The notes under the pieces are model-generated. The model was not told the origin of the DNA. It ran no database searches and worked only from the letters and a program-made list of their open reading frames with translations. 64,000 bases of DNA from Amoebophrya sp. A120. Its lineage: Eukaryota; Protista; Dinoflagellata. Shown here in pieces: positions 16,598 through 53,805 of this stretch. How positions within the stretch are numbered: the stretch's first letter is position 1; every line of letters starts with the position of its first letter. Where the stretch lies: assembly GCA_905178155.1 (NCBI GenBank), contig CAJINV010000002.1:11971102-12035101 (forward strand), given 5' to 3'. The position numbers were made by a program, and so were the translations under genes.

Positions 16598-18157
16598 ATG
16601 AAACTTTTATGCTTTCTCGGGCCGCCCGCATCCGGTAAAGGCAGTTACACGAAGCTTGTGCTCGAAACCCTCAAAAGGGTCGCGGCAAGGAGAGACCCTA
16701 CCTCGCAGTGGCACCACAGCGGGGCAGCGGAGCACGTTTTGGCGAAAGATGCAGAAGGCCAAGTTCTTAAGTCGAGCGGTTTCCAACATCATCCAAGCGC
16801 GAGGCTTTACAGGCACCATAATCTTCCTGTCCAACACTTCGAAAAGGTTGTCGCCTCGGACCTTATCAAGAAGGAGATGCGTGAGCAAACGGTCTTTGGC
16901 AAAGAGATGCAACCCTACATGGAACGCCACGAGCACGTATCAAATGTAAAAATGTCTGGGTCTGGAAGATTTCTAGGTTTGTCATGCATATTTTCCATGA
17001 CCCATGATGTCTGTGATGCATGCCGCAGCATCACAGATTTTTAGAGCGCTTTGTGATGCCTCCACAGCATCAGAAATGACCTCTCCGCGTAGCACAAACT
17101 GGAGTCCTCTTGCTGGTCATGCAATACAAATTTTCTCAGAATCCAGAGACAGCAGCACAAGTTGCAATCTTCCAGACCCAGACATTTTTGCATTTGATAG
17201 CACGTTCCCAGTGAGCTGATGGTGGAGACGCTGTGTGCGCACCTCGAAGAAATGGCCGCGCAGAGGAGAGGAGGTTCTTCACTTGAGAAAGATAAAAGTG
17301 TCATCAACCACCTCAACGTTTTGCTCGACGGTTTTCCTAGATCTGTGGACCAGGCAGAAGCGTTTCTAGCCAAGACGAAGAGGAGGCGACGGCTTGTTTC
17401 CGATCAGGAATTAGACGGAGAGATGGACGCCAACCCGCGTGGGGAATCTCGTCTTTCCCTTCGTTTTCTGCATCTCGATCTGAAGCGCGAGTGGGCCCGG
17501 GCAAAGGCGGTTGGGCGACTGGTCTGTCCGGATTGCGATTTTCCGTACAACGACGCAGAGGTACGATTGGACGCAGTAGATACAGCGAGTCAACAAAATC
17601 TTGCTCGCGCGCTTGAAGAGGACATTTATGATTATGACACTCCCTACACTGACACGCGAGAAGAAAAAGCAAGAAAGCGGGACAAGCAAGAAGAACGGCG
17701 CGTGTGGTCTGCCGACTTGCCGCCGGAACCCAAATGTGGGCGGAAACCTGGATGCGGCTACCCAAACAGCCTGATCCGTCGTGACAGTGCGGAGGTGTTT
17801 GACCACCGGTATGAAATCTATCTGAAAACCGAATTTCCGGTGGTGGAGTACTTCACCACGATGGCTGAGGCAGAGAAGCAGGAACTTGTAAATCGAAGCC
17901 GCAGAAAAATAGGAGCAGATGCAACAGATTTGAAAAATATGACCTCTACTGAGAATTGTCGTGATAGTAGCACTAGCACGAAAATCTCTTCCGTGAAAAT
18001 GACCGGCGGGTATCGGACGATGTGTGATGCGATTGTGAAAGAGGTGATGCATCTGCTTGATCTCGACCGTGACGAAAGTTGTAGCAACGAAACGGTTTAT
18101 CCTCTGGAAGAAGTGCAGAAAGAAGCCCATCTTGTGCTTGACGAGTGGGAGCAATAG
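16598..18157 (+). CDS. ADK: Adenylate kinase family protein (exons 16598-16937, 17205-18157; 430 aa)
   Basis: P-loop GPPASGKGS. The NMP-binding region SDLIKKEM...MERHEHV|PSELMV is restored across the introner, followed by LLDGFPRSVDQAE and a LID starting GRLVCPDC. Confidence 0.88.
16938..17199. mobile_element. Introner family A (262 bp) in ADK
   Basis: TIR TATCAAATG(T/C)AAAAATGTCTGGGTCTGGAAGATT; direct repeat GCACG/GCACG; removal restores the frame. Confidence 0.92.
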
Positions 18158-19548
18158 CATAATTCAGCAGTATTAGCAGCCTATGTAGCAAATAAGTAGT
18201 TGTAGATATGTATGTTTTGTATAATTCACCACATGATCTTAGTTAGTTGTTGTGTATAAAGATGTGCTGTTCATATCGTCCTCTCCGTCCTCGTGCGCCA
18301 GACGTGATGAAGACCAAAGAACACCATCGCCACCATGCGCCACAGGGGCAAGAGCAAAGATTCTTCATATCTCGGAAAACAGGATGTTAGCATCATTTAT
18401 GAGATTCAGTCGGTTTTTCATTGCTACTACCTCGCATGGCAAGTCGGTTTTGCTTTATTGCTCACATTAAAAAAAAAAAGTCGGTGCCCTCGACTCCTGC
18501 GACGCTGCAGGACAACTACCTCTACAAAACTTTTTCGGTTGGACCTCATTGGTTGAAAACCAAAAATTACGAAGATCTTCAATAGCCTCGCAAAGTCGGT
18601 TGTGGTTCTGGGAAAGCTGCAGCTCCGCGATGTCAAGCCTTTCGGATTTTAAAATTAGACCGAGATGGAGGTCGGTCGCGTCAAAGAAATGCTCGATCTG
18701 TGCTGTGAAATCCAAGATCTAACACAATAACAATTCTTTTTTGCAAAAATTCAAATGCCTAAAAGTAAAGCTTTTGCAAGACGAGGAGTATTTGTATTTC
18801 AATACAAACGAAACCAAAAAATCCATTCTAAATTACGATGACCATCTTGATCTTCGCCGAAATTCTTTGTAATGATTGCAAACAGGTTGTGGAGAGCGAA
18901 TTTTAGCCTGTAGTTTTGACGACTTTACCACTTCCTACTCCAAGCTCGTCCAGCAAGAGACCGTCAAAAGTTAAATTTTTTCGATATTTTTTACTTCGGC
19001 ACATTCATAGCTATGCGTAGGGAAGTAACGTCGTAGGCCACTTGGAGCACGAGCAATCAGTACAGCACCGGGTTTGCCGCGGTCTGTACGCTCAAAGTTT
19101 CCTTTTAGTCAGAGTAAACGTTGTTTGCGGGCTGAGGTTGATAGTTATTCAGAGTTTGAACCCCTAAGCGCCCCGACCTCAAACAATAACGTTTTTCACG
19201 GCTCCTGGTACTTACAGCAATTTACCGATAGCCGCGGCGTGTTTGTGTTTTAGCGTGAAACGATATACAGCAACCTTCAACAAACCTCCAATAATCATCT
19301 TCTTACACTTACTCTGATTTAAATCCTTGAATACTCTCGATTAGAAATCGCGGAGAATAATAAAAACAAAGAGTCGATCCAGCAGCCGTAATTATTTTTA
19401 ATCTCCGGGCCAGCAGACGAATTTGAGAAGACAGCAGGGCGGATTGACGACCGCCCGATCCCGGAGGAAGATCGACGACTTCGCTGCTGTAGCAGGGACG
19501 TGGTTGAAGTACTAGAGCCTTAAAAGTCATCTCCTCGTTCCGCCCAAG

Positions 19549-22500
19549 ATGTCGGTGATGGATTTCCGAGACGAGGTGATCCAGCTGACTCCGTCAGGCG
19601 TGAAGTACAAGGTGTGCGGCAGGCTAGGGCGCGGCGGCAGTGCAGACGTGTTTAAGGTGCAATGCTTGTACATCCCAGACGCGTTTAAGCAGACCCAGGC
19701 GCAGCGCGTGCAGGTGTTGGAGGAGCAGCTGCTGTCGAACGCCGGAAAACTGACCTACCTCACCCCGCCCTCGGGCGCCGGCTCCAGCACGGTCTCCGGC
19801 GGCAGCACCAGCGCCACCGGGGGGGCGCAGAAGCCGCAGCAGATGCAAACCCTAGGGATGGCCACGAGCAGCTCCAGCAGCTCGATGCAGCCGCCCATCC
19901 TGCCTGCGGTATCCTTGATAGCCAACGACAAGCACCCCGAGCTGTCGGGGACGGGCAGAAATCAGATCGTGAAGCGCAGGCTCTCCGACCTGGTGGAGGA
20001 GGGCAACGAGGACTACAACAACGTTTTCGACGAGAACGACAATCCGAGCGGGTCCGACCTCAACACGGCCGCCGCCTTGCAAGCCCTGCGCGGCAGTGCG
20101 GAGGGCCGGGAAGGCTCGGCGCGGAGAAACAGCACTCGGTCGTCTGCGGCCGAGATGGAACAAAATAGTACAAGTAGCGGCACGGGCGGGGCGGGCAGCG
20201 GTTCCGGGGGTGCGCCCGGGAGTGGCGGCCATCCGAGGTCGCGGTCCGGCGAAGTCGTGCAGTACAGCACATATCAAACAAAAAAAGTTCGTCACGATCA
20301 CTCATGCGCATTTTTGCAATGCAAAACTCTCCGTCATGCGTAAAAATGCATCACAGCCAAACTTCATAAGGGATTTCCCTAGTGTTTCTGCAATACAAAG
20401 AAAAGCTGTCGTGATGCTGAAAAAATTTGTAATGCAAAACCTGCAAGGTAGTGACTGTGACAAACTTTTTTCTCTCCATAGCACGCCCGGATCCTACAGT
20501 GGACTCAACCAGGTGGGCGAGGAAGTGGTGTCTATCAAAAGGAAAAATCCCCCCTCCCCACATCAAAACGAAATTTCTGATGCTGGATTTGAGTACACAA
20601 ATCAGGTTTGTATTGCAGGAAAGCATTGCAGTCAGGTCCCCAGGCTAGGTAGGGGCGTATGCGTTTAGTTGTTCAGCATGGCAAGCAGCTCCCTTCTAGG
20701 CCCAAGAGCATGACAAATCGCTTCCATAGTGGGGCGGAAGCTTCTGCCCTTGTCTTCTTGCAATACAAATGCGATTTTCGACCTCAAATCACCTCCAGGG
20801 CTACGTGCGACCCCTCCGACGCTGCGTGTGGAAGGAGGAAGTTCGGCGTGTCGGGTGAGGGACCCCCGACGGCTGGCCTACGGATATCAGGTGGATCACA
20901 GGCTCAAATCAGCAACACAAATTTTCGGAAACATACCTTTTCGATATGGGGAGGGGGGATTTTTGCTTTTGATAGTCTCCAACCCGAGGTCGCGGTCCAA
21001 CTCCCCGGATGCGCGCCCGCGACAACCGGCCGAGGCACAGACGATCCAGAGCGCGGAGGGGATTGCGACGCCGGACTGGTACCAGGCACCCGGAAGCAAC
21101 GCGCAGTCTCTGGCCCCAAACGCCATAGCAGGCAGTATTAACGTGGCAACATCGCTCGCACCCGGGTCGGGCCCGGGCAGCGGCATGAACAAGACAAATT
21201 CAAACAGCGACGCCGGGACGCAGAAAGAGGGCAGCGTGCACCCGGCTATCTACGACCCGCATTTGTTGGAGAACTACCAGATTCCGATGTTGGAGGAGGG
21301 CAAGTTTTACGCGTTGAAGTCCGTGATGGCCCACAATGCAGCGGAGTTCCAGGTCTTCCTGCGGGAGGTGGACCTGTTGCAGAAGCTGGCGGGGAACCCC
21401 TACGTCATCCACTTACTCGATGTCACCGTGTTGGAACAGGATAGACAGGTAGTGAGTCAGGCTTATTATGTAAAAACTGAATTGTGCGAGAACAAGTGCG
21501 CGCAAGGGGTGAAAATTGTATGCTTGATGAAGATTTTGTACGCAAACAAATCAAAAATGACTTGAAAACGAATTGAATCTGAAGTCTTCCAAAATTACAA
21601 CAGCTCTTCTTGGTACTCGAGCTTGCAGACACAGATTTCGGGCGGTATCTGACCCTGAACCATAATCTGACCGCGCAACAAATATTGGACTTCTGGGTGC
21701 AGATGGTGATCGCCGTCAGAACAATGCACCGAGACCACGACGTCATCCATTTTGACTTGAAGCCAGCGAATTTTTTGATGGTACAATTTTGAATGTCAAT
21801 GTCTACGGTCTTCTTTATTGAGAATGTGTCAAAGCGAATCCGATTAATCATTAGCAATACAGGGCAATGTGCGTTTTCTCGCACACAGTGTGCGTTTTCT
21901 CGCACATCAGTAGCAAAGAAAAGTAGCACATAAAACGAAAACTTCTCATAATTGGTCACCACAGGTAAATGGGCGGCTCAAGCTGGCGGATTTCGGTCTT
22001 GCGCGGCAGCTGGGCGACGAGGCCACGCACGTCTCTAGGACAAACCGCGCGGGCACACTGAAATACATGGCCCCTGAGTGTATCTATCAGCCGCACGCGC
22101 AGAAGTTGCGACTGGGCAAGGAGTCGGACGTATGGTCTCTGGGGATTATCCTGTGTCGAATGATTTACAACACAACACCGCACGCACACTTGCAGGACAA
22201 CCACACAAGAATGCTCATCGCCATTTCCGACACCAGAACAAAGATCAATCTGGTGGACTGCCCACGACTTTACCTTAGGGACGACGGAGTGACGGACCAG
22301 AATATGCGAGAGGTATAATGTCCGTGTTTGCTTTCACCAGACCAACGGCAACGAACTCAAACTATTCATTGTAGTGATGAAAATAACAAGGTCTTGTTCA
22401 TTTTCTGCAGTTGAAGTTGTATACAACCAGGATACTTGTTTGGCTGTGCAAAATACCCTAGCAAACCGCATTTTGTTTGCACATGATTTTTTGTATGCCT

Positions 22501-25500
22501 TCCACTTTTCCACCCGATCCCTCACTAGGTCCATGATTGGATGATGAACGTGGCCCGGGGGTGCCTGATTTTCGAGCCGCACGCGCGGTTCAACTCTGAG
22601 GACCTGTACATGATCCTGAACCGCGCCAAGTTTCCGACCGTGGCCATCATCGCGATGCTCCGCGACAAGACCGACCAGTACACGGTACTGGATGCCATTC
22701 CGGAGTCCGAGGGCGGTGTGTACGGGGCGATGGGACCCTCGGCGATCCCGCGGAAGCGGGACCCCCACTTTCGCGAGAAGGACGACGACGAGGGGACCAA
22801 GCAGTTCGGCCCCACCGGCATGTTCGACGATGCCAAAACCATGCGGGCATTACAAGAATTAGCTGCTGAGTATTGAAGATTTTTGATGTTTGTACGTTGC
22901 ACCCAAGAACTCGTCTGTAGTTTTTCATCATCCATGGCTTGCCATCTTGCATGTCGAGATTCATCTTCCATGGACGACGCATGATCTTTGCTGTATATGA
23001 ATATTATCGACGTGATTTTTCCCTGGACACCGACATTGTTGATATTGTCACACACTACACATCTACAGGGATTTGGATCTTGAGAAACAGGGTCTCCTGG
23101 AGGATATCGAAGAGGACGGGGAATACGACAGCGACCTATCAAATGTAAAAATGTCTGGGTCTGGAAACTTGTAATGCTGAGTGACGTAGCATGAGGAACC
23201 CACAAATGACGGCCCAGCATGACAAGTTTCTGAACTTCTAAGTGTTGCCTATTCTGCATGACAAAGTACGACTCTGCATCACAGAAAAAAAAGGTTTTTG
23301 GGTAACGCGCATGACAGACTTGAGAGTCCTGCTGGCCTAGCATGACAAACCTTGCATTTTTCCAGACCCAGACATTTTTTGCATTGGATACGACCTGGAT
23401 ACAGACGACGAGCTTCTGTCGGAGGATATGCATTGCAAAAGTATCGTACTAGTATGAATCGCAATACAAATTTTCCCAGAAGGAAAAATGGAATTTGTAA
23501 TGCTGATTTCGCTAAGAAACANGACCGGTTCTTCCATATCAAAGTGAAAAAAGCCCCCACCCCATATCGGAAACAGAAGATGCGCGAATTTGTGATGCTG
23601 TATTTGAGTACACAAATCAGGTTTGTATTGCAGGAAAGCATTGCAGTCAGGTCCCCAGGCTAGGTAGGGGCGTATGCGTTTAGTTGTTCAGCATGGCAAG
23701 CAGCTCCCTTCTAGGCCCAAGAGCATGACAAATCGCTTCCATAGTGGGGCGGAAGCTTCTGCCCTTGTCTTCTTGCAATACAAATGCGATTTTCGACCTC
23801 AAATCACCTCCAGGGCTACGTGCGACCCCTCCGACGCTGCGTGTGGAAGGAGGAAGTTCGGCGTGTCGGGTGAGGGACCCCCGACGGCTGGCCTACGGAT
23901 ATCAGGTGGATCACAGGCTCAAATCAGCAACACAAATTTTCGGAAACATACCTTTTCGATATGGGGAGGGGGGATTTTTGCTTTTGATAGTCTCCAACCC
24001 GAGGTCGCGGTCCAACTCCCCGGATGCGCGCCCGCGACAACCGGCCGAGGCACAGACGATCCAGAGCGCGGAGGGGATTGCGACGCCGGACTGGTACCAG
24101 GCACCCGGAAGCAACGCGCAGTCTCTGGCCCCAAACGCCATAGCAGGCAGTATTAACGTGGCAACATCGCTCGCACCCGGGTCGGGCCCGGGCAGCGGCA
24201 TGAACAAGACAAATTCAAACAGCGACGCCGGGACGCAGAAAGAGGGCAGCGTGCACCCGGCTATCTACGACCCGCATTTGTTGGAGAACTACCAGATTCC
24301 GATGTTGGAGGAGGGCAAGTTTTACGCGTTGAAGTCCGTGATGGCCCACAATGCAGCGGAGTTCCAGGTCTTCCTGCGGGAGGTGGACCTGTTGCAGAAG
24401 CTGGCGGGGAACCCCTACGTCATCCACTTACTCGATGTCACCGTGTTGGAACAGGATAGACAGGTAGTGAGTCAGGCTTATTATGTAAAAACTGAATTGT
24501 GCGAGAACAAGTGCGCGCAAGGGGTGAAAATTGTATGCTTGATGAAGATTTTGTACGCAAACAAATCAAAAATGACTTGAAAACGAATTGAATCTGAAGT
24601 CTTCCAAAATTACAACAGCTCTTCTTGGTACTCGAGCTTGCAGACACAGATTTCGGGCGGTATCTGACCCTGAACCATAATCTGACCGCGCAACAAATAT
24701 TGGACTTCTGGGTGCAGATGGTGATCGCCGTCAGAACAATGCACCGAGACCACGACGTCATCCATTTTGACTTGAAGCCAGCGAATTTTTTGATGGTACA
24801 ATTTTGAATGTCAATGTCTACGGTCTTCTTTATTGAGAATGTGTCAAAGCGAATCCGATTAATCATTAGCAATACAGGGCAATGTGCGTTTTCTCGCACA
24901 CAGTGTGCGTTTTCTCGCACATCAGTAGCAAAGAAAAGTAGCACATAAAACGAAAACTTCTCATAATTGGTCACCACAGGTAAATGGGCGGCTCAAGCTG
25001 GCGGATTTCGGTCTTGCGCGGCAGCTGGGCGACGAGGCCACGCACGTCTCTAGGACAAACCGCGCGGGCACACTGAAATACATGGCCCCTGAGTGTATCT
25101 ATCAGCCGCACGCGCAGAAGTTGCGACTGGGCAAGGAGTCGGACGTATGGTCTCTGGGGATTATCCTGTGTCGAATGATTTACAACACAACACCGCACGC
25201 ACACTTGCAGGACAACCACACAAGAATGCTCATCGCCATTTCCGACACCAGAACAAAGATCAATCTGGTGGACTGCCCACGACTTTACCTTAGGGACGAC
25301 GGAGTGACGGACCAGAATATGCGAGAGGTATAATGTCCGTGTTTGCTTTCACCAGACCAACGGCAACGAACTCAAACTATTCATTGTAGTGATGAAAATA
25401 ACAAGGTCTTGTTCATTTTCTGCAGTTGAAGTTGTATACAACCAGGATACTTGTTTGGCTGTGCAAAATACCCTAGCAAACCGCATTTTGTTTGCACATG

Positions 25501-26726
25501 ATTTTTTGTATGCCTTCCACTTTTCCACCCGATCCCTCACTAGGTCCATGATTGGATGATGAACGTGGCCCGGGGGTGCCTGATTTTCGAGCCGCACGCG
25601 CGGTTCAACTCTGAGGACCTGTACATGATCCTGAACCGCGCCAAGTTTCCGACCGTGGCCATCATCGCGATGCTCCGCGACAAGACCGACCAGTACACGG
25701 TACTGGATGCCATTCCGGAGTCCGAGGGCGGTGTGTACGGGGCGATGGGACCCTCGGCGATCCCGCGGAAGCGGGACCCCCACTTTCGCGAGAAGGACGA
25801 CGACGAGGGGACCAAGCAGTTCGGCCCCACCGGCATGTTCGACGATGCCAAAACCATGCGGGCATTACAAGAATTAGCTGCTGAGTATTGAAGATTTTTG
25901 ATGTTTGTACGTTGCACCCAAGAACTCGTCTGTAGTTTTTCATCATCCATGGCTTGCCATCTTGCATGTCGAGATTCATCTTCCATGGACGACGCATGAT
26001 CTTTGCTGTATATGAATATTATCGACGTGATTTTTCCCTGGACACCGACATTGTTGATATTGTCACACACTACACATCTACAGGGATTTGGATCTTGAGA
26101 AACAGGGTCTCCTGGAGGATATCGAAGAGGACGGGGAATACGACAGCGACCTATCAAATGTAAAAATGTCTGGGTCTGGAAACTTGTAATGCTGAGTGAC
26201 GTAGCATGAGGAACCCACAAATGACGGCCCAGCATGACAAGTTTCTGAACTTCTAAGTGTTGCCTATTCTGCATGACAAAGTACGACTCTGCATCACAGA
26301 AAAAAAAGGTTTTTGGGTAACGCGCATGACAGACTTGAGAGTCCTGCTGGCCTAGCATGACAAACCTTGCATTTTTCCAGACCCAGACATTTTTTGCATT
26401 GGATACGACCTGGATACAGACGACGAGCTTCTGTCGGAGGATATGCATTGCAAAAGTATCGTACTAGTATGAATCGCAATACAAATTTTCCCAGAAGGAA
26501 AAATGGAATTTGTAATGCTGATTTCGCTAAGAAACAAGATTTGTCATGCGTGGTTGCAATTAGTACGAGTGCGATACTTTTGCACAGGATAGAGGAGGAA
26601 GAAAAGCGAAACTCAAGCTGTATGACCATCCTCATTGTTCTCCTCTCTATCATCGTCGCAGGTCTCATCGGCTGCATCATCGCCGCGGTCATGCTGCATC
26701 AGAAGAGAATGCAGTCCTCCACGTAG
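19549..26726 (+). CDS. MPS1: Mps1/TTK-like protein kinase with C-terminal transmembrane segment (~777 aa if the 3-kb duplication is collapsed)
   Basis: Exons 19549-20271, 20486-20532, 20980-21448, 21604-21780, 21965-22312, 22529-22869, 23069-23136, 23396-23426 and 26597-26726 form one open frame. Motifs are LGRGGSADVFKV, FYALK, FWVQMVIAVRTMH, IHFDLKPANFLMVNGRLKLADFG, GTLKYMAPE and SDVWSLGIILCRMIY. There are four GT-AG introns and four introners. Confidence 0.75.
20272..20480. mobile_element. Introner family B (209 bp) in the kinase gene
   Basis: TATCAAACAAAAAAAGTTCGTCAC...GTGACAAACTTTTTTCTCTCCATA; direct repeat GCACA/GCACG; reverse-complement relative of 39628-39833. Confidence 0.9.
20533..20974. 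mobile_element. Introner family C (442 bp) in the kinase gene
   Basis: TIR TATCAAAAG(G/C)AAAAATCCCCCCTCCCCA; direct repeat GTGTC/GTCTC; removal gives EEVVSNPRS. Confidence 0.9.
20587..26536 (+). repeat. Apparently identical 2.9-kb direct duplication (20587-23521 = 23602-26536, offset 3015), probable assembly artefact
   Basis: The ORF tracks are identical at offset 3015. The junction has an N at 23522 followed by ~95 nt identical to 28465-28560, which belongs to another gene and introner. Confidence 0.9.
23137..23390. mobile_element. Introner family A (254 bp) in the kinase gene; duplicate copy at 26152-26405
   Basis: TATCAAATGTAAAAATGTCTGGGTCTGGAAA...TTTCCAGACCCAGACATTTTTTGCATTGGATA; direct repeat CGACC/CGACC; removal gives EYDSDLDTDDELL. 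Confidence 0.9.
26442..26591. mobile_element. Introner family D (150 bp) in the kinase gene; truncated copy at 23427-23521
   Basis: TATGCATTGCAAAAGTATCG...CGATACTTTTGCACAGGATA; direct repeat GAGGA/GAGGA; removal joins LLSE to EEEKRNSS and the TM exon. Confidence 0.85.
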
Positions 26727-28189: not shown

Positions 28190-31100
28190 TCTGCGTCTGT
28201 TTGTACCAGGAGCTGTTTGAAGACTACTCTGGTGCCCCGAAAAAAACACGAAGCTCCACGTCCTCAACAGACAAAGGTACTACAGAAGAGGCGGACGCTT
28301 CGTCTTCTTGGCGTGCCAGCTTCAATGAGGAGCTGGAAAAGCTTGTGTACGTGGGAGAGATAGAGGATGGGTACAACGCCGCGATCTCCAAGCAGACACT
28401 TACGCGCGAGGCACGGGAAGTGCTTAAGGACTCAACGAAACACAGTCGGCACAAAGCGTTCTGGGACCGGTTCTTCCATATCAAAGTGAAAAAAGCCCCC
28501 ACCCCATATCGGAAACAGAAGATGCGCGAATTTGTGATGCTGTATTTGAGTACACAAATCGACTTGTATTGCTAGAAGGCCAAGAGACGAAGCTGCGGCC
28601 TAAATGGCAGGTAATCTGTCATGCTGTTTCCCACTTCCAGTTGCCTCCTGTCATCCTGGAGCTGCAAGGCTTTCCCACGCTAGACAGCACTACAGTGCGC
28701 ATCTTTTGCCTTCTGGCATCACAAAGGTGATTTGTGACCCCAAATCTGCATCACAGATTTCCGTTTTGATATGGGGAGGGGGCATTTTTCATTGTAATAT
28801 TCCAGGAAGACACCTTGGTGAAACCAGACACGGCTCGGCAAAGCAGCACCCGGCAGGGCGGAGGTGAGGCCAGAAGAGCCGTGGACGGTAAGATGAATTT
28901 GTAACAGTAAAAATCGTAATTGATGTAATACAGAACCTAGACGACCTTACTGAGCGTAAGCAGGAAGATGGAGCGAGAAAGAAAAAAGAACCATTCTATT
29001 CATTTCCCTTCTCCAAAACCAAATCCCTTGGCTCTGTTGTGATCATCTTTTTCGCAAACGACTGAAGGGCGCAGCCTGTCCGATTGGTCCTCGCAATCTT
29101 GCACGCACACAAAGCCTGCGGGCGAGTTGCGGCCCTGGTGGATGGTGGAACTGGATGCGAACATTCCGATCGGCACCGTTCACATCCTGAATCGCAAAGA
29201 AGCGGCCGATATGCATTGCAAATACGTATTGGTCTGGACGAAAGATGGAGCATGTATTGTGTGTCTTCAGTCTTTATTTGCATGATTCCCCAAGAACCAG
29301 TTTTGTATGACAAGGAAAAGTAGGAGCGCCACTTTCTTGATCATGCAAAATAGACGAAGTCTGTATAAATGCGAAGCCCCCCGTGGGAAAATTGTCATGC
29401 TTTGACGCGCTAGAAATTTTTCTGAGACTCATTCATATACACTTCACAAAGTTCCAGACCCAGGAAAAAATACCCCATGCATAGCCGATCGACTGTCCGA
29501 GTTCGAGGTCCGGATTGGAAACGATCGAAATCTCGCGTTGGACAATTCCCATTCTTCAAGTGGGAGAAGTAGAGGCTCCTCCACCAGCACTTCTTCTGGA
29601 GCTTCTTACTCGGTCTGTCGCGGCGATTCCCGGAACCCCGGGCCGGGAGCCTGGGCGGTGGTGGACTGCAGTGGCTTTGAAGGGAAGTACCTCGCGGTCG
29701 TATTGACCGCAGACGATCCAAAGGCGGTGCTCACACTCTGTGAGGTATCTGTAAGTCGCAAAAATGTTGATGCAAGGTGTACTGTGTGGAGCTCGAAAGT
29801 GCTACTCTAGAAAGTGAGAAATTTAAAAGCGATATCAGACTCCAGCCTGTGGTGTGCCCGTTGTGCAACAGGTTTTTTCCCCTGACTATGATAATGGTGC
29901 CCGTGGTCGATTCTGCTTCTATGCTCCACACACCAGGTTCTTGTCTACCCGCAGTCGATTCGACATCACCCTTTCTTCCTTTCCGCTGCCCTGGCATTCG
30001 ACGAGTATACGCAGATTTTGCGCAGCTCCAACGAGAAACGGGAAGCCTATTACGTCCTTGGGTTGGCGAAGTTAAGGCAGCTACTCAGACAGTTGTTCGC
30101 GCTCGAGAAGCTGAACGGCATGCAAGACGAGGAGAAGAGTGGCGGGATGAGAACAAGAAAACAAATTGCCACAAGTTCTTCGTCGAGGGTTAAGAACTCA
30201 GCGAACTGGATCGAGCAGGTCGAGGAACTGTACACAGCGCTATCGCTGGAACTGCCCACGGAATTTCGCCAGCGACCGGAGATACTGCGCATGCGCGCCG
30301 AACTGTACGCCGAGGTCGGTTTTTCGCCCTCCTGCGCAGAGGTTTTGCAGCACGGAGCAGGAGGAGCCTCCTCAGGCGGGGACTCGGCATCTGCCTTCGC
30401 AGGCACTGCGGACGGGTTGCCGGGACAGGAGGAGGGCGACGATTCCGCCCTGGACACAAGGTCCACCTCCGCCATCGCGACGCTGAAGGGCAAGGGGAAG
30501 TTGCACCAAAGGAAAGAGGCTGCGCTAGCAAAAGCAGCAAGCAATAATAAAGCGATAACGGCTTCTGGTGAAAAATTATCCAGTTCCTCAAGTAGTACCA
30601 GTTCTAGCTCAACAATTCCCCCCGCGGATCAGCTGGATGGAGCGACGAGTCCGGCGCAGAATAGCATCTGTTGCAAGGACAGCATTCTCGGGACGAACAG
30701 TGGGTGCCTGTCTACTGCCTTGGCCTTGTACAAGTTTGCGGAGAACTTGGAGGAGGAGGCGGATTTGCTATACGAGAAAGCAATCGAGCATATCCTGAGT
30801 AAAAACATCCCCACACCAGAGTCAAGATGGGGATTTTGCAACACAAACCTAGAACTTTTGGGGGTCACGCAATACAAGTTGCAGTCCGTAGTGTAGTGCA
30901 GGTTCGCAAGGCCAGCTGCATCAGAAATCCATCTGCTTATCCTGTTTACAGCATTACAAATTACAAAACACGACTAAAAATGCCTCTCCTGGCGATGCGC
31001 ATTACAAATGTTCCTGTCATTGCAAATCTGCATGACAACTCCGTAGCCATTTTGGCTCAAGGCTCTGCCTTGTTGCCTGAGATCCTACAAATCTAGAATA

Positions 31101-34100
31101 GGGGGAGCTATGCCGTAGAGTAGATTTGATAGCTCACAATCATTTTACCACCACTGACACCACGTCGGTATCTCCCCCGACTCCCTGAAGAGGAGTTTCG
31201 AAAGAAGTAGATAAACACCCGAGCGTGGCGGGTCCGCTGTGCCCCCCTTTACAGTAGCCTACTAGATCTCAGGCCCCCCTATACACTAGCCGAGATCTCA
31301 GAACCAGCGCCCCGTGCTGCCGAGTACCCCTCCTAAAAATGACCTCCTCCCCGCCCGGACACGGCGCCTGAATCCTGCAGCAGTCGTCCACGCACCATCC
31401 TGCGCAGCAGCAAGGTCCTTGCTTAGCCTGACGGGCATGGGCAGCAACTTCTCCATGTTCGCGGCAGAACCGGAATACGAAATCAGACTGGGGCAGGAGT
31501 TCTGGGAAGGGTTAAGTCCACCATGCCGCCGGTGGATTAAGCAGCTCGGGTAGGCTTCGGCAAACGGACACCAGGTCGAGGTTTCGCGAGCGTGGATGCC
31601 CCCCAGCTCGCCCAAGCCAGTAGCAACAAGCTCAATCGAGTCTTGTTCCCCAGCGCAATAGATGCGATCATGTAGGGGCGCACAATAGATGCGAGCTCAA
31701 GGCTTGGCAGCGCTGGGGGAGATGGTGTTGCCCACGACGCGGGAATATTCCCGCCGTGGAATCGAGAATGAACCTGGCGCCGAACGTTTTACGCTTCTGT
31801 GTTGCTCCCGCGTGGGCAGCGGTCCGCGTGCAGAAACGTGCTCTACTTGAGCAGCCTTGCCAATCGTGTATCTGTACCCCGCACTTTCGGTCATGTGTAA
31901 AGCAATCGCCGATCATGATCGCCAAATCCGGCGGTCTAGTGGATCAGCATTAAATCTCGCACCTCTTACCTTTAATTTGGATGTTTAAACATCACTTCAG
32001 GCTGGCGCTTGTCGCTTAGTGCCTCCAGTGAATGCATTCGTCCAGACAGTAACAACTGGTTTGCCGCAGGCTGCAGCTTTCTCTTGTAGTTGTTGGCCTG
32101 GCTGTACATCCCCGTTATAGTGGTTGCGAGTTGGAAGTTTGCGAGAATCAGAGTAGGGAATTGTTGGCAAAAAAAAGTGAGGCGTTGTTCAGTTGGCAAG
32201 TTGGCACAGTGTGGATGGTTGCGTTATTTTATTTCACCAGAGCTCCAGTTATTTTCCTTCACCAGAGATCCCTTCTAGTTATTTTCCTTCACCAGAGCTC
32301 CAGGTAGTTTATGCGTGATCCCTGGTTTTCCGACAGAGCACTGTCTTGCATGCGTCAGGAAAGCCGCCTTGGGTGCCACGGTACTTGAGGACGTGTTATA
32401 TGTCTCGGGCGCACGTACATACTAGCCTGCAGGGACGGCGGAGCCGGAAAAAAATTGCGAAGTATGTTTGGTGGCGATAACAGAGTTGGAATATAGTGGC
32501 CGGGAGATGATGGTGATGGCACTTAGGTGTCCGCCTGACCCACCCGCCCTGCGTCTCAGGCCATCTGCGGCTATGGCACAATGGGGGGGCAAAGTGTGTC
32601 GCATTTTGTTTAGCATGACAACTCTGGTGTGGGGACGTTTTTACTCAGGATAGAGCAGGGCTTTTCCGCATGGAAGAGCTACTTCCAGACGTGCGAAATT
32701 TTCCTGCCGTTTCTGTTCCAGAAGCAGATATGGATTGCAAAAATGTCTGGGTCTGGAAGATTGCAACTTGTCATGCTAAATCCGAATCATGCAGAAATCT
32801 GTGTTGCATGAGTGCCAAAAGCTGTCCACTTTCGACCAAGTTTGGAGGGAGTTTCTCATGCAGGATTGGCATGATAGAGACTTCGCAGAATCTGTCATGC
32901 GAAGTACCGCATTCCAGACCTCATGGGTCATGGAAAATCTGCATGACAAGTTTTCACTTTTCCAGACCCAGACATTTTTGCAATCCATAGCAGAGCAGCC
33001 AGAACAACAACCTGGCCTGGGACCGGAAGCAGCCGGAGGTGGCCGACCTCGTCGCCGTGCTAGAGAAGAACAAAGTTTTGCTCGAGCAGGACTTGAAAAA
33101 GTTGCTCATGGACCCGCTGGGCTTGTTGAGCTCGTTGCTCAACGAGGCAGCAGTCAATGCCAAGACACCGCCTCAACTTCCGATTGGGGGAAGCAACTCG
33201 GCTTCAGGTACTAGTTCTTCCACGGGCGGCGCCGACCACGCTGCAAGAGACCGAGAACAAACGCTAGACTCCTTTGCGCGACTTGTCCGGGAGAAGCATT
33301 CGAAGAGCCAACTCGGGAAAAATTTGGCAGGAGAGCAGGACGATGGCAGTGCCGAGATCGATGATGGGAGGAATTCAAAGCGAGGCAAAAGGTCAGCACA
33401 AGTAGATGATCATCAAGAGCAGTACGTTTTTAACCGAAATACGTTCTTCCACGTAGCCGCGACGAAGCAGGGCGCGTGGATCAAGTTCGTGCTCTATACG
33501 GGGGAATACGGCTGGAACCCGAGTTACTGTCCGGCGAATGTCGCGGAGAATTACGCGACCAGAAACTTCAACTACGAGCAAAACCTCGTGGGCAAGCAGG
33601 TGACGAGCGAGAGGGAGCTGGCAATCGGGAAGAACAAGCTTCACGCGTGCACCATTTTCGAGAACAACAACCACCTGCTACCCGGGCACGAGTTCAAAGA
33701 TTACTACTTTCTGGCAAACAACGAGGAAGTGTCCTTCCAGTTGTTTCTTCCGCGAACGAAAATAGGCACGCACAGCGGCGGATCCAACACGCGGGTCAAC
33801 TTAGACTTGAATTTGTTCAACGTAGCCGCGGAGAATAAACGCAGTCCAGAGGAAGCAGACGAGTCGACCGGAAGAAACACAAAGAAACGGAAGAAGAACA
33901 AGAAGCAAAAGAACAGCACCACTACCTCGAGCGACCGTGAACTGACGTCGTTTATCGAAAAGGAAATCACGAGTAATGCACTGTTGCAGCCGTTCGTCAC
34001 TGGGGAGTTCTACCGCGGACAAATCGTAGAAGTCGGAGCTGCATCTTCGTCACGTACTGGACTGGGAGTAGAAGTGGCAGGTGAAGAAGATATGTCATTT

Positions 34101-37071: not shown

Positions 37072-37122
37072 AAAAGCAACGATATACGACTATAATAAAA
37101 AAGCAACGATATACGACTATAA
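37072..37122. repeat. 24-bp tandem duplication
   Basis: AAAAGCAACGATATACGACTATAAT occurs twice. Confidence 0.8.
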
Positions 37123-37880: not shown

Positions 37881-40277
37881 ATGGCAGAAACATTCCCTAG
37901 TAGTACTGGTGTTTTTTCTTCCTTAGCGGAACTTCCAGCACACCTGCCGGTTGTATTGGAGGGGCAACTACCGCTTTTGTTGCCGCTGAAGGTCGGAAGA
38001 AAAATGCTATACGACGCAGGAGCGGTGTTCCGGCGCAGCGTGGACGACGTTTCGCATTTGCCCGTGGCGGTGCAGGAACTTTTCGCCTCGGTGCCGAAGG
38101 GAGCACTGCCACCCGCGGAAATTTTGCTGACGCTCGGCTGGCTGTTTTTCAATATTCTGTTCAGCTACCTCGGGTTTTCCGTGCTGCTCCAGCCTCGAAG
38201 TAGACCAGAGGTCTCGACCGTGGACGACGATGCTTCTAAAGGTTCAGCTGCAGCCACTTCTGCCAGCGACTCTTCCAGGTCGGCGCCTCCTGGCAAGAAG
38301 AACCAGGGCAACTACACCAAGAATGGCACTGCGGAGGACCCCAACAAGTCTTCAGCGTCCGACATGTTCACCATTCCGCCTTTGATTGATCTGAGCGAGA
38401 CGAGAAGCAGGACGAACAACCTGCTATTCTTCCGCCGCACGATTTTCGCCCTGGTACTGGGCGTTGTGCCGATTTACGTCGTGTACAGTTCGGTGTTCCT
38501 GCAGCCGTTCCTGATCTTTCTGTTTTGCAGCTCCGTCGCGGTCCTGTACTTCCCCCCGGTGCTCACGACCCTGATCGCCATTGCCGTGCTGAGTTGGTGC
38601 CACCTGAACGTGATGGGGAGCATGGGCCGTGGCGCCGACGCCAACGCGGACGTGGCGGGGGCAGCTTCGGACCACACCGACTACAGCGACCCAAGCGGGA
38701 TTTTCATGCTGTTTTGCGTGCGGCTGTCGCAGGCCGCGTGGGAGGTCTACGACGGAAAGATGCTGGCGCGAAACCCGACCAGCCCCCTGTCCGCGAACCC
38801 GAAGGTGGACCAGTTTCGCCGCACGCGGGCGGTGGTGCCGCCGGAGAGACCAACGGTGTCTTGGATTCTGGTGTTTTCCGCCTTCTGCGTGTTCTTCCCC
38901 GGAATTTTAGTGGGGCCCTCCGGCGGCCTGCGCGATTTTGTCGACTTTCTCGACATCGCGGGCAGCTGCAACGACGGCAGTGCCGCCAAAATGAACTTGT
39001 CCCGTCGTCCCGTGAACAAGCTGAAGATCTTGAAGCTCATCTTCACCGCCCTTACGTGCGCTGCGATCTACCAGGCGGCCAACGTGGTCCTTCCACTGAA
39101 CCGGGACATCCTCGACAACTACTTGCCCACCCTGCCGGTGGTCCTGCGGATTCTGTACCTGACCTTCTCCGTGGACGGCTTTCGCTACAAGTACTACCTG
39201 GTCTGGTCTCTCTCCCTCGCGGCCTCAACCGCGAGCGGGTTCTCGACTGACGACAACGACAAAAACGCGCAGAACGTGGACATCGTGCGCGTGGAAACGT
39301 TATCCAATGCAAAAATGTCTGGGTCTGGAAGAATACGCGATTTGTCATGCAGCTTTTCCATGACACCCATGAGGTCTGGAATGCAGGACCTAGCATGACA
39401 GATTCTGTGCGATCTCTCTCATGCCTATTCTGCATGAGAAACCCCCTCCCGACTTGGTCAAAACTGGACGACTTTTGGTAATCATGCAACACAGATTTTT
39501 GCATGCTGCGGATTTAGCATGACAAGTTGCAATCTTCCAGACCCAGACATTTTTACATTTGATAAACGTCCACCGCCATGGCGGACATGCTGGTCGGGTG
39601 GAACACCAGTGTGAGCTTGTGGCTGAATATGGAAAGAAAAAAGTTTGTCACAGTCACTAACGTGCAGGTTTTGCATGATAAATTTTTCCCGCATCACAGG
39701 TTTTTCTTGTATTGCAGAAACACTAAGGAAATCCCTTATGAAGTTTGGCTGTGATGCATTTTTACGCATGACAGACAGTTTTGTATTGCAAAAATGCGCA
39801 TGAGTGATCGTGACGAACTTTTTTTGTTTGATACTCAAGTGCTCGGTGTTCGAACGTGTAATGGACAGCAGAGTGATCAACCGGTTCTTCCCCAAGTCAA
39901 AAAAACTGCTCGCGACTACCATCACCCGCATCTTCTCCGCGGTCTGGCACGGCTTCCGTTCGGGGTACTACTTGTTCTTCCTCTCAACCGTGCTGGTCAC
40001 CGTGTCCGAGGCCCACCCGGTGCTGCGGTGGCTGGAGGCGAAAGCGCCACTGGTCAAGTGGCTCCTGCATGCCATGTTCTTCAATGTGGTTGCGGTGCCC
40101 TTCGTTGTGCTGACCTGGCAAGACTCCTTGAAGGCCTGGAATTTGGTCTACTACTCCGCTCACATAGTCATGCTAGGCTTCATCGCCTCGCAGCAATTCT
40201 CGAAGTTCTCCAGCTGGAAGCTACCCCCGAGGGCGGGGGAGGAGATCAAGCAAGGGGAAGGGAAAAAGGAGAAGTGA
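37881..40277 (+). CDS. MBOAT-family lysophospholipid acyltransferase (exons 37881-39300, 39570-39627, 39839-40277; 638 aa)
   Basis: Multiple TM segments, FFPGILVGP and RYKYYLVW. The conserved WNTSVSLWLK lies on the 58-nt exon between two introners, followed by the catalytic-His motif SAVWHG and GYYLFF. Confidence 0.9.
39301..39564. mobile_element. Introner family A (264 bp) in MBOAT
   Basis: TATCCAATGCAAAAATGTCTGGGTCTGGAAGA...TCTTCCAGACCCAGACATTTTTACATTTGATA; direct repeat AACGT/AACGT. Confidence 0.92.
39628..39833. mobile_element. Introner family B (206 bp) in MBOAT
   Basis: TATGGAAAGAAAAAAGTTTGTCAC...GTGACGAACTTTTTTTGTTTGATA; direct repeat CTGAA/CTCAA; removal gives WLKCSVFERV. Confidence 0.92.
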
Positions 40278-44200: not shown

Positions 44201-44504
44201 AAACAAGGAGTGTGGGGCGGTTTGTTTTTCCGCGTTTTTTGGCATCATGCTACCAACGGTGCATGCTGCAATCGGTTTTTTTTTTCTAAGTTGGAGCGGC
44301 GATGCGGGAGCGATGATGACGGGCTGTCTGTCGTTGCCGGATTTATCTGCGGACGTCGAACAATCACATATACTGTGTACTATTCATGCCAGAGTCTTCA
44401 ATAAAAATATGAAAAACAAAATATATCTCGCAATGTAACAACAGGTGTCGTGTGGTGAAATCTTACCAGAATTCTTCAAGGGTTTTGGTGCTACCACCCG
44501 CTAA
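41270..44504 (+). CDS. RIB43A: RIB43A-like flagellar microtubule inner protein, multi-exon with canonical GT-AG introns
   Basis: Motifs RRKRILNAKVRTIGVDKETLDAQV, RREYALSDPNQLKKE, VSSLCKFAGED and RIRRDHFRGL. The last exon 44445-44504 encodes EFFKGFGATTR*. The GT-AG junctions are phase-consistent; an extra exon in 43471-44444 cannot be excluded. Confidence 0.85.
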
Positions 44505-47873: not shown

Positions 47874-48555
47874 TTAGACAAGGAAAATCGCCGCAGTACA
47901 TGAAAAATCGACCACCCCCCTACCGCGGGGTGGCGGAGCAAGAGGCTGGCTTATGTAGACCTCATCGGGGCCGCGGCTTTGTTCGCTGGACTCCGCGCCA
48001 GGACGAGCGCCGCCTACTTTGGCGCCAGTTCTCAGTCACTGCGCCGAGAACTATCGCGATACCATTTCTCGCATGTTGCGGGCAGGTCATTCCGCACCCA
48101 GATAGCGGGGGCCGCCTCTTGGAAAGACGCACCGCAGGGAGCATTCACAGGCCCCCCTTTTGCCGAAAAAAAAGCACCCCCAAGAAGCACCCCCCTTGGA
48201 TTCCCTTTCCCCGACCTAAAATGGCTGATTTCCGGAGCCAAAAAAGGACCCCCCTTAAGCACCCCCCTGGAGGGGGCCCCCTGTACGCCGCCTGGGGCCC
48301 CGGTCGTTGTTTGGTCGGCCTAGTTTGGGAACGGGCTCCCGACTTCGCTGCGGCCGAGGCGAAGCAATTCCGCGGCAGGTACGCGCGCGGCCTTTCCACT
48401 CGGGAACACGTCGCGCCTGCGCCACGCACCTAGGTCTGCAAGAATTGGGCGAGCTGCTACGAGCTGAAACCCAGACAAATGATCTCGTCGCCCCACCACG
48501 CCGGCGAATGGGGGTGGTCGATTTTTCATGTACTGCGGCGATTTTCCTTGTCTAA
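47874..48555. mobile_element. MITE-like element (682 bp)
   Basis: ~46-bp TIR TTAGACAAGGAAAATCGCCGCAGTACATGAAAAATCGACCACCCCC; 5-bp direct repeat TCATC/TCATC; GC-rich interior with no recognisable ORF. Confidence 0.9.
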
Positions 48556-48655
48556 TCATCTCCATCATCATGATATGCATTGATATTGAAGGTACGACGC
48601 GACGGGGTGGGTTGGTTTTTGATGAAGATACGGCGACGGCGATAACGCGATCTGC

Positions 48656-48781
48656 AAACTTGATTCCACAAACTTGATTTCAAATCTAAACGTGATTCGA
48701 CAAACGTGATCCGAAGATAAACGTGATTCCATTAACTTGATTCCAAGCGCAAACTTGATTTCAGATTTCGACTAACTTGAT
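48656..48781. repeat. Degenerate minisatellite (AAAC(T/G)TGATT core, about 8 copies)
   Basis: Repeated AAACTTGATT/AAACGTGATT at 13-20 nt spacing. Confidence 0.8.
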
Positions 48782-51745: not shown

Positions 51746-53805
51746 ATGGCGGGTGGCAAGAAAGCGATGAAGAAAGTCATGAAGAAGATCATGAAAAAAG
51801 CAGCACCTTCTACGAACTCTGCCTCGACTGAGACCACATCAAAGGCCGAGCAATCCAAACCGGCTGCGGAGAACAAAATGGATGTGGTGGAGGACAGCGA
51901 CAACGAAGAATCTTCCTCCTCGGCCGTGGCACCCGAGGAGCTTGCGGAACGCGCAGCGGAAGAGCTCGCGAAGAAAACAACAGGACCAAGTGCACCAAGC
52001 TCTAGCACAACTCCGGCGGCAAAAGAAAAGAAAATCGTCAAAGCATCTGACGACGAGAACGAGGGCAGCGCTGAAGAAACCGGGGACATCGAGATGCTGG
52101 AGGAAGAGGATCTGAGCGAGGATGAGGCAGACGCAGATGTAGCCGGCGCTAGTACGACCGCAAATGCAAAAAACACAGCGCAAGAAGGAGAACAAGATGA
52201 CGACGAGAACGTTGCTCCCGATGAGGAAAAGGTCGTGGTGGAGGAATTTGCAAAAGACCCCTACCTGCTGAAAGACGCGGAGTACATCAAAACGGACCCA
52301 AACTGGAAGAACAAGCAACGCACACTCTTGTTCAGCACGCGGGGCATCTCCGGCCAGCACCGACACCTGATTGACGATTTGAAGAAGCTGTTGCCGCACC
52401 ACAAGGTGGAATCGAAAGTCGAAAAGTCGCAGGATTTCACCGTAGTTAACGAAATCGCCGAGCTGAAATCGTGTAACAACGTGTGTTTTTTCGAAGCGAG
52501 GAAACACCAGGACTTGTACCTGCACGTCGCAAGGGTCCCGTGCGGCCCCACGGTGAAGTTTCAGGTGCTGAACATCCACACCTCCGGCGAGGTGCGACTG
52601 AGCGGAAACTGTCTCCAGTACAGCAGACCACTGCTCACCTTCGACGCACCGTTTGACGCCGTGCCGCACTTGAAGCTTATCAAAGAACTGTTTGTCCAGG
52701 TATTGTGACAAGGCTGCTGTCAAAATGTTTTTATTGCGGTTGATTATTTGGATGTGCTTGCGCAAGGTTTCGCGCTTTTTTTGTACTCATACATTGGATT
52801 TTTCTTTTTTGATTTTGAAAAAACTAAAAAAAAAATTCTTGACGTAAACATAAACAATACACAGACATTCGGAACGCCGCGGAACCACCCAAAGAGCAAG
52901 CCGTTCCACGATCAAGTGCTATCATTCTACTATGCGGACGAGAAGATCTGGGCCCGGCACTATCAGATTTCGCCTCTGACAGACGCCGACGCGAATGATC
53001 CCGAGAAGCAGACGCTAACGGTATCAAAATGAAAAATCCCCCCACCCCATATCAAAACGAAGTTTGTGATGCTGGATTTGCGTACACAAATCAGATTGGT
53101 CTTGCTGGAGAGGACTGCAGGCCCATACTAAGCCTGAGCGGAGAGGTTTCGGGCTAGGCTCTTAGCATGAGAAACGTCTGCGCTGTAGGCCCAACAGCAT
53201 CACAAACCGCCTGCATAAAGCGGCGGCTGTCTGTGGAGTTGCCTTCTTGCAAGACAGAGATGATTTGTGGTCGCAAATCAGCATTGCAAATTTTCTGCTA
53301 CGTACCTTTTCGATATGGGGAGGGGGGATTTTTCCTCACAATAAACGGAGATTGGGCCGCGTTTCGTATTGGATCCGATTTGGATCCTGCAGGGGAGCTT
53401 CTCAGGCCAGAAAATTTACCACAACAACAATTTCAGCACCCCCACCGCGGTGCGCAGGGAAAACAAGCAAAAGCTCGGAGTGCGGGCAAAGGTACGTGAT
53501 TTGCTTTTAGAAAGATATTTGATATGGACGTTAACGTATGTTTCTTTGCGTGATAGTAGATGATGATGATGATGATGCGTGTAGTAGTGCTTTTCTTGCG
53601 ATGTCAGCGGCGACAGCCGGCTTGGTGCTACTCATATGGCATGGTGATGCTCATGGTCGACTGCATCGATATGCCTGTTTATCAACTTTTTCTCAAAAAC
53701 CAAACGCAGGTGCGTGCAGAGCAAGACGAACAGACCCGACTCACGAACAAGAAGCTAGAAAGAGCCGCGGATCCGACTGAAGCAATCTTCGAGGAGTATT
53801 CATAA
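51746..53805 (+). CDS. BRX1: Ribosome biogenesis protein BRX1 (exons 51746-52699, 52865-53021, 53349-53491, 53710-53805; 449 aa)
   Basis: WKNKQRTLLFSTRGI, FFEARKHQDLY, GNCLQYSRPLLTFD and FGTPRNHPKSKPFHD. The Brix signature LTEIGPRFVL appears only after the introner is removed. Confidence 0.93.
53022..53343. mobile_element. Introner family C (322 bp) in BRX1
   Basis: TATCAAAATGAAAAATCCCCCCACCCCATATC...GATATGGGGAGGGGGGATTTTTCCTCACAATA; direct repeat AACGG/AACGG. Confidence 0.93.

What the first reader, a model, noticed from the sequence alone, without database searches (positions are those of the whole stretch)
16938..53343. Twelve TAT...ATA transposon-like introns that must be excised exactly, without GT-AG
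Seen: 12 independent inserts from about 5 families sit in 5 genes. Each starts TAT, ends ATA, has TIRs and has a 5-bp direct repeat. Removing the element plus one repeat restores the frame in every case, including hallmark motifs (BRX1 EIGPRF, MBOAT WNxxxxxWL, lectin NRxxxxRL). Eight of the 12 excised lengths are not multiples of 3. No register within the repeat gives GT-AG for exact removal; only ADK has a GT-AG option, and it duplicates one His. Ordinary GT-AG introns coexist in the same genes. Established: introners with inverted and direct repeats have been reported in Amoebophrya, with the excision mechanism unresolved. Inference: one shared machinery recognises the paired TAT/ATA ends plus the 5-nt repeat across families with unrelated interiors, i.e. 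a second splicing pathway.
Basis: partly seen in the sequence, partly recalled or inferred. Interest (0 to 1): 0.88.

Follow-up and report, generated by a model that had tools for sequence, protein, structure and literature searches.

The report
Known Amoebophrya transposon introns, exactly excised
These twelve inserts are small transposons sitting inside genes of a marine parasite of algae, a type already published for this genome in 2021; spliced contigs show four of them removed exactly without the normal splice signals, likely by a still-unidentified machine that is guided by the hairpin their ends form.

Summary
Real, but already known. The window is Amoebophrya sp. A120 (ADK 100% identical). 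Its TAT-N7-AAA introners with inverted and direct repeats were published in 2021 with RNA-seq support and an open mechanism (PMC7789003). All 12 inserts exist; 9 have a perfect 5-bp repeat and 3 a 4-of-5 one. Exact removal opens all five genes and reproduces the deposited ADK and MBOAT proteins. Contigs of a presumed RNA run skip four inserts to the base, while DNA-type contigs keep them. In a related assembly 199 of 270 elements have exactly 5-bp repeats, none 6-bp, and one filled/empty pair shows the repeat is a target-site duplication. Against strict recognition of TAT/ATA plus repeat: repeats show no strong base preference, 58 of 300 are mismatched, and 12 of 202 coding-called elements have a changed end. 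Best reading: the hairpin is recognised and stem plus 5 nt is removed by distance, likely outside the spliceosome (about 45%); a remodelled spliceosome is the close rival (35%). Mismatched repeats are natural markers for mapping the cut; in one case it lies after repeat base 3.

The parts
16938..17199 (+). Element 1 (262 nt, repeat GCACG) in adenylate kinase-like gene 16598-18157
   Evidence: exact removal equals deposited protein P0001; homologues P0002 and P0004 have HLHV and HQHV, one His fewer than the GT-AG option would give
20272..20480 (+). Element 2 (209 nt, repeat GCACA/GCACG) in protein kinase gene starting at 19549
   Evidence: 92% identical to element 11 in opposite orientation; no RNA laid here
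20533..20974 (+). Element 3 (442 nt, repeat GTGTC/GTCTC), kinase gene
   Evidence: no RNA laid here
23137..23390 (+). Element 4 (254 nt, repeat CGACC), kinase gene; second copy at 26152-26405 lies in the duplicated stretch
26442..26591 (+). Element 5 (150 nt, repeat GAGGA), kinase gene 3' end
   Evidence: a same-length GT-AG alternative exists
28479..28799 (+). Element 6 (321 nt, repeat TTCCA) in the 1077-aa gene 28111-34454
29210..29483 (+). Element 7 (274 nt, repeat GCCGA), degenerate right arm without the AAA block
   Evidence: X1 bin depth 9.07 against 9.09 expected if removed and 13.93 if kept (inferred); one DNA-type contig spans it (28774-30817)
30791..32652 (+). Element 8 (1862 nt, repeat GAGCA): a ~280-nt family member with a 1.58-kb internal expansion between 12-nt direct repeats
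   Evidence: skipped exactly by X1 record 2; structure
32729..32989 (+). Element 9 (261 nt, repeat GCAGA)
   Evidence: skipped exactly by X1 record 2
33128..33132 (+). Empty site: single GAGCT in the window; locus L140 has an element flanked by GAGCT on both sides
39301..39564 (+). Element 10 (264 nt, repeat AACGT) in MBOAT gene 37881-40277
   Evidence: skipped exactly by X1 record 5; model equals P0060
39628..39833 (+). Element 11 (206 nt, repeat CTGAA/CTCAA), MBOAT gene; the contig keeps the upstream G at repeat base 3
   Evidence: X1 record 5 resumes at 39837 with no other letters
53022..53343 (+). Element 12 (322 nt, repeat AACGG) in BRX1 gene 51746-53806, inside the EIGPRF motif
   Evidence: motif in homologues; no RNA laid here

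Best explanation
The twelve inserts are the published TAT-type introners of Amoebophrya sp. A120: non-coding miniature transposons that duplicate 5 bp on insertion and are likely cut out of the pre-mRNA by a hairpin-guided cut-and-join pathway outside the normal spliceosome, which would remove the stem plus exactly 5 nt by distance. Shown: anatomy, 5-bp target duplication (filled/empty pair), exact skipping of four elements in spliced contigs, retention in DNA-type contigs, no shared splice dinucleotides, both orientations used. Inferred: that X1 is RNA; that the two arms pair in the cell; that the machine measures distance from the stem and does not need identical repeats or intact TAT/ATA; that the catalyst is an endonuclease plus ligase (about 45% against 35% for a remodelled spliceosome); that an integrase-like DDE transposase elsewhere in the genome, binding the repeated GCAWBACA motif, moves them. 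Because the amount removed equals element plus duplication, almost any insertion into a gene would be silent, which would explain their spread.
For: Identity; published motif 'TAT, seven less-conserved nucleotides, at least three As' and 5-bp repeats (PMC7789003 section 11 passage and Fig. S19 legend). Exact skipping: X1 record 2 leaves 70 nt between 30785 and 32989 and record 5 leaves 62 nt between 39294 and 39837, as exact removal predicts; X1 depth is 0 in 31312-31975. DNA-type run X5: depth about 27-38 on unique bins, contigs run into the elements. 199 of 270 TIR-paired elements found without a repeat filter have an exact 5-bp repeat, 1 at 4 bp, 0 at 6 bp. 183 of 202 coding-called elements have no GT-AG, GC-AG or AT-AC register. 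Orientation 66:72 among 138 of 202 assignable elements. Arm positions 11-25 pair with mean probability 0.86-1.0 in 10 of 11 window elements folded. Repeat mismatches in 58 of 300, at all five positions, 21 synonymous and 23 not; element 11 is removed exactly despite one. Precedent: euglenid non-conventional introns leave as full-length circles, RNase III or tRNA-type machinery proposed (passages of PMC11282704, PMC12621601).
Against: No excised product, enzyme or transposase was seen. G-U against A-C pairs in sense-strand stems are 117:123, so no sign of selection for RNA pairing (weak test). The terminal three pairs are predicted unpaired in elements 2 and 12, and element 7 has a poor arm. 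TAT ends deviate at 18 of 1242 sites (9 of them TAC, perhaps inherited variants) against 3.0% per repeat site pair, so some constraint on the ends is not excluded. A nearly complete spliceosome is present and U1 was not detected, which fits a remodelled spliceosome (PMC7789003 section 10). X1 is 'RNA?' by guess, contigs only, and one run; only 4 of 12 junctions are read directly and 1 more by depth. The frame caller was right in 51 of 53 confident held-out segments, and variant elements were not shown to be spliced.
Confidence: 0.5

Rival explanations
1. A remodelled U2-type spliceosome, lacking or with a highly diverged U1, removes both classes; the hairpin brings the ends together and replaces GT-AG recognition.
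For: 83 of 89 spliceosomal proteins and U2, U4, U5, U6 found in A120, U1 not detected; a strain with canonical introns has U1 (PMC12005148 passages); Fritillaria non-canonical transposon introns are attributed to the spliceosome; each end carries a T run and the GCATGACA motif in both orientations, which could stand in for pyrimidine tract and branch site (inference). A cut one base before TAT would give N-TAT, like the GTAT of 3 of 8 canonical donors; element 11 allows this register.
Against: No dinucleotide is shared at either end in any register; no strong base preference in 165 perfect repeats (p 0.05-0.41 per position); no orientation bias. The spliceosome's usual need for G+1, branch A and terminal AG is established knowledge, recalled.
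Confidence: 0.35
2. The skipped form is a reverse-transcriptase template-switch artefact across a hairpin flanked by direct repeats; real transcripts keep the inserts or use other sites.
For: Hairpin plus short direct repeat is the known setting for such artefacts (PMC2923612, PMC4176328, listing only); all RNA evidence here and in PMC7789003 is cDNA-based.
Against: X1 depth is zero inside element 8; retained elements put stops in or shift the frames of ADK, MBOAT and BRX1; the skipped form equals the conserved protein of relatives; exact skipping occurs across a mismatched repeat.
Confidence: 0.05
3. The elements are excised from DNA in an expressed life stage, like ciliate internal eliminated sequences.
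For: Removal of element plus one repeat is what precise DNA excision gives; ends begin with TA; orientation does not matter.
Against: X5 contigs carry filled junctions at the depth of unique DNA and one spans element 7; no separate somatic nucleus is known to me for this parasite (recalled). Only 15 of 617 joints were displayed and one DNA run was laid, so rare empty DNA sites are not excluded.
Confidence: 0.05
4. Nearby GT/GC-AG sites are used, with small changes to the proteins.
For: Frame-keeping GT/GC-AG pairs within 30 nt exist for all 12 (3 to 27 each), near-exact for elements 1, 5 and 12.
Against: Four junctions read in contigs are exact and non-canonical; deposited ADK has HEHV, not HEHHV; BRX1 homologues keep the Glu.
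Confidence: 0.03

Closest known systems
Amoebophrya A120 introner elements (Farhat et al. 2021, PMC7789003)
   Same: Same genome; TAT + 7 nt + AAA ends; inverted and direct repeats; non-canonical junctions supported by RNA-seq; mixed with canonical introns; mechanism open.
   Different: Nothing in kind. The paper gives repeats of 3-5 nt overlapping the borders and says border positions are unknown; here the repeat is strictly 5 bp and abuts TAT/ATA, a filled/empty pair is shown, and one cut is placed after repeat base 3.
A120 introner families in Gozashti et al. 2025 (PMC12130899)
   Same: 58 A120 families listed; of the 19 rows seen, most are classed TIR DNA of unknown superfamily with many non-canonical ends.
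   Different: Automated TSD lengths there run 2-5 (19 of 58 rows seen); one family has integrase-like ORFs inside TIRs, not found in this window.
Euglenid and diplonemid non-conventional introns
   Same: Paired ends, TSD-like repeats, no GT-AG, coexist with U2 introns; mechanism open.
   Different: Unrelated lineage; CAG/CTG arm motif and pyrimidine|purine junctions there; circular products shown there, untested here.
Fritillaria borealis non-canonical introns
   Same: MITE-derived, TIR and TSD, non-GT-AG.
   Different: They have preferred ends (AG-AC, AG-AT) and are attributed to the U2 spliceosome; no preferred ends here.
IS3EU/GingerRoot DNA transposons
   Same: TA..TA termini, integrase-like DDE enzymes (PMC10045372 passages).
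   Different: TSD usually 6 bp there; 0 of 270 at 6 bp here; no transposase found.

Membership tests
Amoebophrya A120 introner elements | Located in the A120 genome | tested here: met
   ADK and MBOAT models equal deposited A120 proteins P0001 and P0060
Amoebophrya A120 introner elements | Inverted repeat starting TAT, seven variable bases, three or more A | tested here: met
   the right end of element 7 departs from it
Amoebophrya A120 introner elements | 3-5 nt direct repeat at the borders | tested here: met
   9 of 12 perfect and 3 of 12 with one mismatch, all 5 bp
Amoebophrya A120 introner elements | Spliced from RNA at non-canonical sites | tested here: met
   4 of 12 read directly in contigs of X1, a run guessed to be RNA; 1 more by depth; 7 not read
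Amoebophrya A120 introner elements | Repeated across the genome in families | tested here: met
   X5 summed depth 10^4-10^5 on element bins against about 30 on unique bins; within-window families
MITE (non-autonomous TIR DNA transposon) | TIR, fixed-length TSD, filled/empty sites, no coding capacity | tested here: met
   no ORF above 151 aa in true elements of 600 nt or more
MITE (non-autonomous TIR DNA transposon) | Autonomous partner with matching ends and a transposase | not testable with these tools
   No genome held; none in the window or 410 kb of loci; PMC7789003 reports none in A120
IS3EU/GingerRoot | TA..TA termini | tested here: met
IS3EU/GingerRoot | TSD usually 6 bp | tested here: not met
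   0 of 270 at 6 bp, 199 at 5 bp
IS3EU/GingerRoot | IS3-like DDE transposase | not testable with these tools
   no coding element available
U2/U12 spliceosomal intron | GT-AG, GC-AG or AT-AC ends | tested here: not met
   GT-AG in 0 of 12 (element 2 has one AT..AC register); 19 of 202 in the related assembly have any such register
U2/U12 spliceosomal intron | Lariat product and dependence on snRNPs | not testable with these tools
   needs lariat sequencing or inhibition
Euglenid-type non-conventional intron | Paired ends forming a stem | tested here: met
   predicted in 10 of 11 folded; prediction only
Euglenid-type non-conventional intron | Full-length circular excised RNA | not testable with these tools
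   contigs showed no excised RNA for element 8, which is uninformative

The most novel reading that the evidence does not exclude
Amoebophrya A120 has a second, spliceosome-free mRNA splicing machine that recognises any terminal hairpin of this shape and removes it plus exactly 5 nt, a ruler matched to the transposase's 5-bp stagger; it would serve tens of thousands of introns and make these transposons harmless wherever they land, in either orientation.
Probability: 0.4. Interest if true: 0.85.

Novelty: already known. Interest (0 to 1): 0.36.

Why it matters
The elements are published, so the observation adds little. The open question is how about 30,000 such introns (29,850 in PMC7789003) are removed without splice signals. 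This work narrows it: the geometry is fixed (element plus 5 nt), sequence at the junction seems free, and about one element in five carries a mismatched repeat that marks which copy survives, so the cut site can be mapped genome-wide from existing RNA-seq. A spliceosome-free, structure-guided mRNA splicing route in an alveolate would parallel the unsolved euglenid case and show how a new splicing route lets transposons flood genes.

Tried and rejected
No whole genome is held and the record behind L140 is not held, so no genome-wide count, transposase search or paralogue search. 16300-23515 and BRX1 have no RNA laid, leaving elements 1-4 and 12 without direct junction reads; elements 5 and 6 were inside the laid stretch but no record across them was displayed. 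Idea that both repeat copies are under coding constraint (3 of 3 window mismatches synonymous): rejected, 23 of 44 are non-synonymous in the larger set. G-U/A-C strand test: null. Placing the cut from mismatch polarity: synonymous differences have A/T in the upstream copy 16:4, non-synonymous 4:11 (Fisher p 0.002 at margin 4, 0.06 at margin 2), but element interiors show no A/T-ward mutation bias (0.021 against 0.025), so it cannot say which copy is exonic; unexplained. End motif in viral contigs: 0 matches. Rfam: 0 matches. Pfam: no transposase hit in the 5 ORFs tested from the two intergenic elements; element 8's short ORFs were listed but not scanned. Earlier scan notes: none. Rows dropped: 98 of 300 elements lacked a confident coding call; 130 of 544 ends matched the fetch pattern and were excluded from the end-variation count. 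Searches for a later mechanistic paper listed none by title; subscription journals are not covered and Roy et al. 2023 was not read.
Full report
Observation. A scan for N5-TAT...ATA-N5 with inverted ends, a relaxed scan and reading the sequence recover 12 independent inserts of 150-1862 nt: one in an ADK-like gene, four in a protein kinase, four in a 1077-aa gene, two in an MBOAT and one in BRX1 (Pfam for ADK, kinase, MBOAT, Brix; none for the 1077-aa gene). The strict scan gives 9 hits, against at most 1 in 100 shuffles. Nine repeats are perfect and three are 4/5. Eight of 12 excised lengths are not multiples of three, and no register gives GT..AG. Removing element plus one repeat, with eight GT-AG introns, opens all five frames.

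Source. The ADK exon is 100% identical to a deposited Amoebophrya sp. A120 protein. My ADK and MBOAT models equal the deposited proteins P0001 and P0060 letter for letter; those gene models are not independent of the published RNA-seq. Farhat et al. 2021 (PMC7789003; abstract, sections 10 and 12, passages, supplement legends, no figures) describe these elements: more than 60% non-canonical introns supported by at least 3 reads, 29,850 introners in A120, inverted repeats starting TAT, seven variable bases, then As, direct repeats of 3-5 nt, U1 not detected, mechanism open. Gozashti et al. 2025 (PMC12130899; passages and 19 of 58 A120 rows of supplement 8, files 13-14 not searched) list 58 A120 families. 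The feature is therefore known.

Removal. In run X1 (contigs, RNA by guess), record 2 leaves the window at 30785 and returns at 32989 with 70 letters between; record 5 leaves at 39294 and returns at 39837 with 62 between. These are the lengths that exact removal of elements 8+9 and 10+11 predicts; the middle pieces were not displayed. Depth inside element 8 is zero. The depth of the bin holding element 7 is 9.07, against 9.09 if removed and 13.93 if kept (assumes one contig). Record 5 resumes at 39837 and not 39834, so the upstream G at base 3 of CTGAA/CTCAA is kept: the cut lies after repeat base 3 (n = 1). Run X5 has flat depth near 30 on unique DNA and contigs that run into or across the elements, so they are present in DNA. 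Elements 1-6 and 12 have no direct junction read; for ADK and BRX1 the homologues support the exact product.

Origin. A motif scan of metagenome contigs returned 141 stretches (140 loci, 410 kb; the 79 rows displayed come from one assembly). Of 270 TIR-paired elements found without a repeat filter, 199 have an exact 5-bp repeat, 37 one mismatch, 1 an exact 4-bp and 0 an exact 6-bp repeat; part of the rest are mispaired ends. Locus L140 matches a window exon at 97% and has an element flanked by GAGCT twice where the window has GAGCT once: the repeat is a target-site duplication. A 637-aa MBOAT from an unnamed 26,332-bp contig reads through both junctions exactly as my model; BRX1 from a contig of that length stops inside a GT-AG intron, so that contig was probably called unspliced and lacks both elements (inferred). 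All 12 window elements and all 300 others carry at least one GCAWBACA motif, likely a transposase-binding site. No autonomous copy was found. TA..TA ends recall IS3EU/GingerRoot, but those usually make 6-bp duplications (PMC10045372 passages), so they are not filed there.

What is recognised. Of 300 elements, 202 had a confident coding frame (caller right in 51 of 53 confident held-out segments). In these, 183 have no GT-AG, GC-AG or AT-AC register; 165 perfect repeats differ little from flanking composition; families lie 66:72 in the two orientations (138 assignable); mismatches fall at all five positions, 21 synonymous and 23 not; 12 have one changed base in TAT or ATA. Across 414 ends found without using bases 1-3, 18 deviate, 9 of them to TAC; this is about the per-copy rate of the repeats or somewhat lower, so the ends are at most partly constrained. 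Arms are predicted to pair at positions 11-25 in 10 of 11 window elements, while the terminal pairs are predicted open in two. A test for selection on RNA pairing was null (117 G-U, 123 A-C). A polarity in repeat mismatches exists but could not be turned into a cut site.

Mechanism. The constant is geometry, not sequence: stem plus 5 nt. I favour a hairpin-guided endonuclease and ligase that measures from the stem (about 45%), as proposed for euglenid and diplonemid introns, where circular products were found (PMC11282704, PMC12621601 passages). A U1-less remodelled spliceosome (35%) is the close rival: the spliceosome is nearly complete, a strain with canonical introns has U1 (PMC12005148 passages), and tunicate introns of this origin are attributed to it. 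Reverse-transcriptase artefact, DNA excision and nearby GT-AG use are each 5% or less. Neither catalyst was observed.

Verdict. Observation confirmed with small corrections; interpretation partly supported; novelty: already known. Searches listed no later paper on the mechanism, within a library that lacks most subscription journals. The value added is the strict 5-bp rule, a filled/empty pair, evidence that junction letters are free, and a way to map the cut from existing data. Interest 0.36.

Noticed in passing
window 20572-26537: 3015-bp tandem duplication of the kinase gene's 3' part around the single N at 23523; 3 differences in 2951 nt and a 96-nt copy of 28465-28560 at the seam. Likely a scaffolding artefact.
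   Followed up: partly
window 55829-61357: 5.5-kb GC-rich element with TAT...ATA ends, long TIRs, an 8-bp duplication (ATCCTTAG) and an internal palindromic array of 21-nt units (58509-58670). Flanks look non-coding; no Pfam hit in 4 ORFs tested; it nearly lacks the GCAWBACA motif. An 8-bp duplication would not fit the 5-nt rule.
   Followed up: partly
window 47874-48555: 682-nt element with TTA...TAA ends, 66-nt TIR and 5-bp duplication TCATC, apparently intergenic; its TTAGA start fits the motif published for strain A25, not A120.
   Followed up: partly
window 31030-32624: 1.58-kb expansion inside element 8 between two copies of GCATGACAACTC; X5 depth suggests a few copies in the genome.
   Followed up: partly
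L140 1-630; window 33078-33132: The related assembly has two insertions about 55 nt apart in the 1077-aa gene that the window lacks; only the second is held whole.
   Followed up: partly
window 43900-45500: X1 contig of 2084 nt at depth 58 covers 44443-45459, where no clear protein gene was seen.
   Followed up: no
window 1686-7286: 1866-aa open frame with about ten Cys-rich repeats (CFFD/CFFE motifs), no Pfam hit; possibly a surface protein.
   Followed up: no
window 54339-55427: Open frame ending in a CPW-WPC domain, known from apicomplexan sexual-stage proteins (label recalled; Pfam hit).
   Followed up: no
loci L001-L140: First base of the repeat falls on codon position 3 in 86 of 202 coding-called elements (62 and 54 for positions 2 and 1; p 0.016), a mild phase bias.
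   Followed up: no
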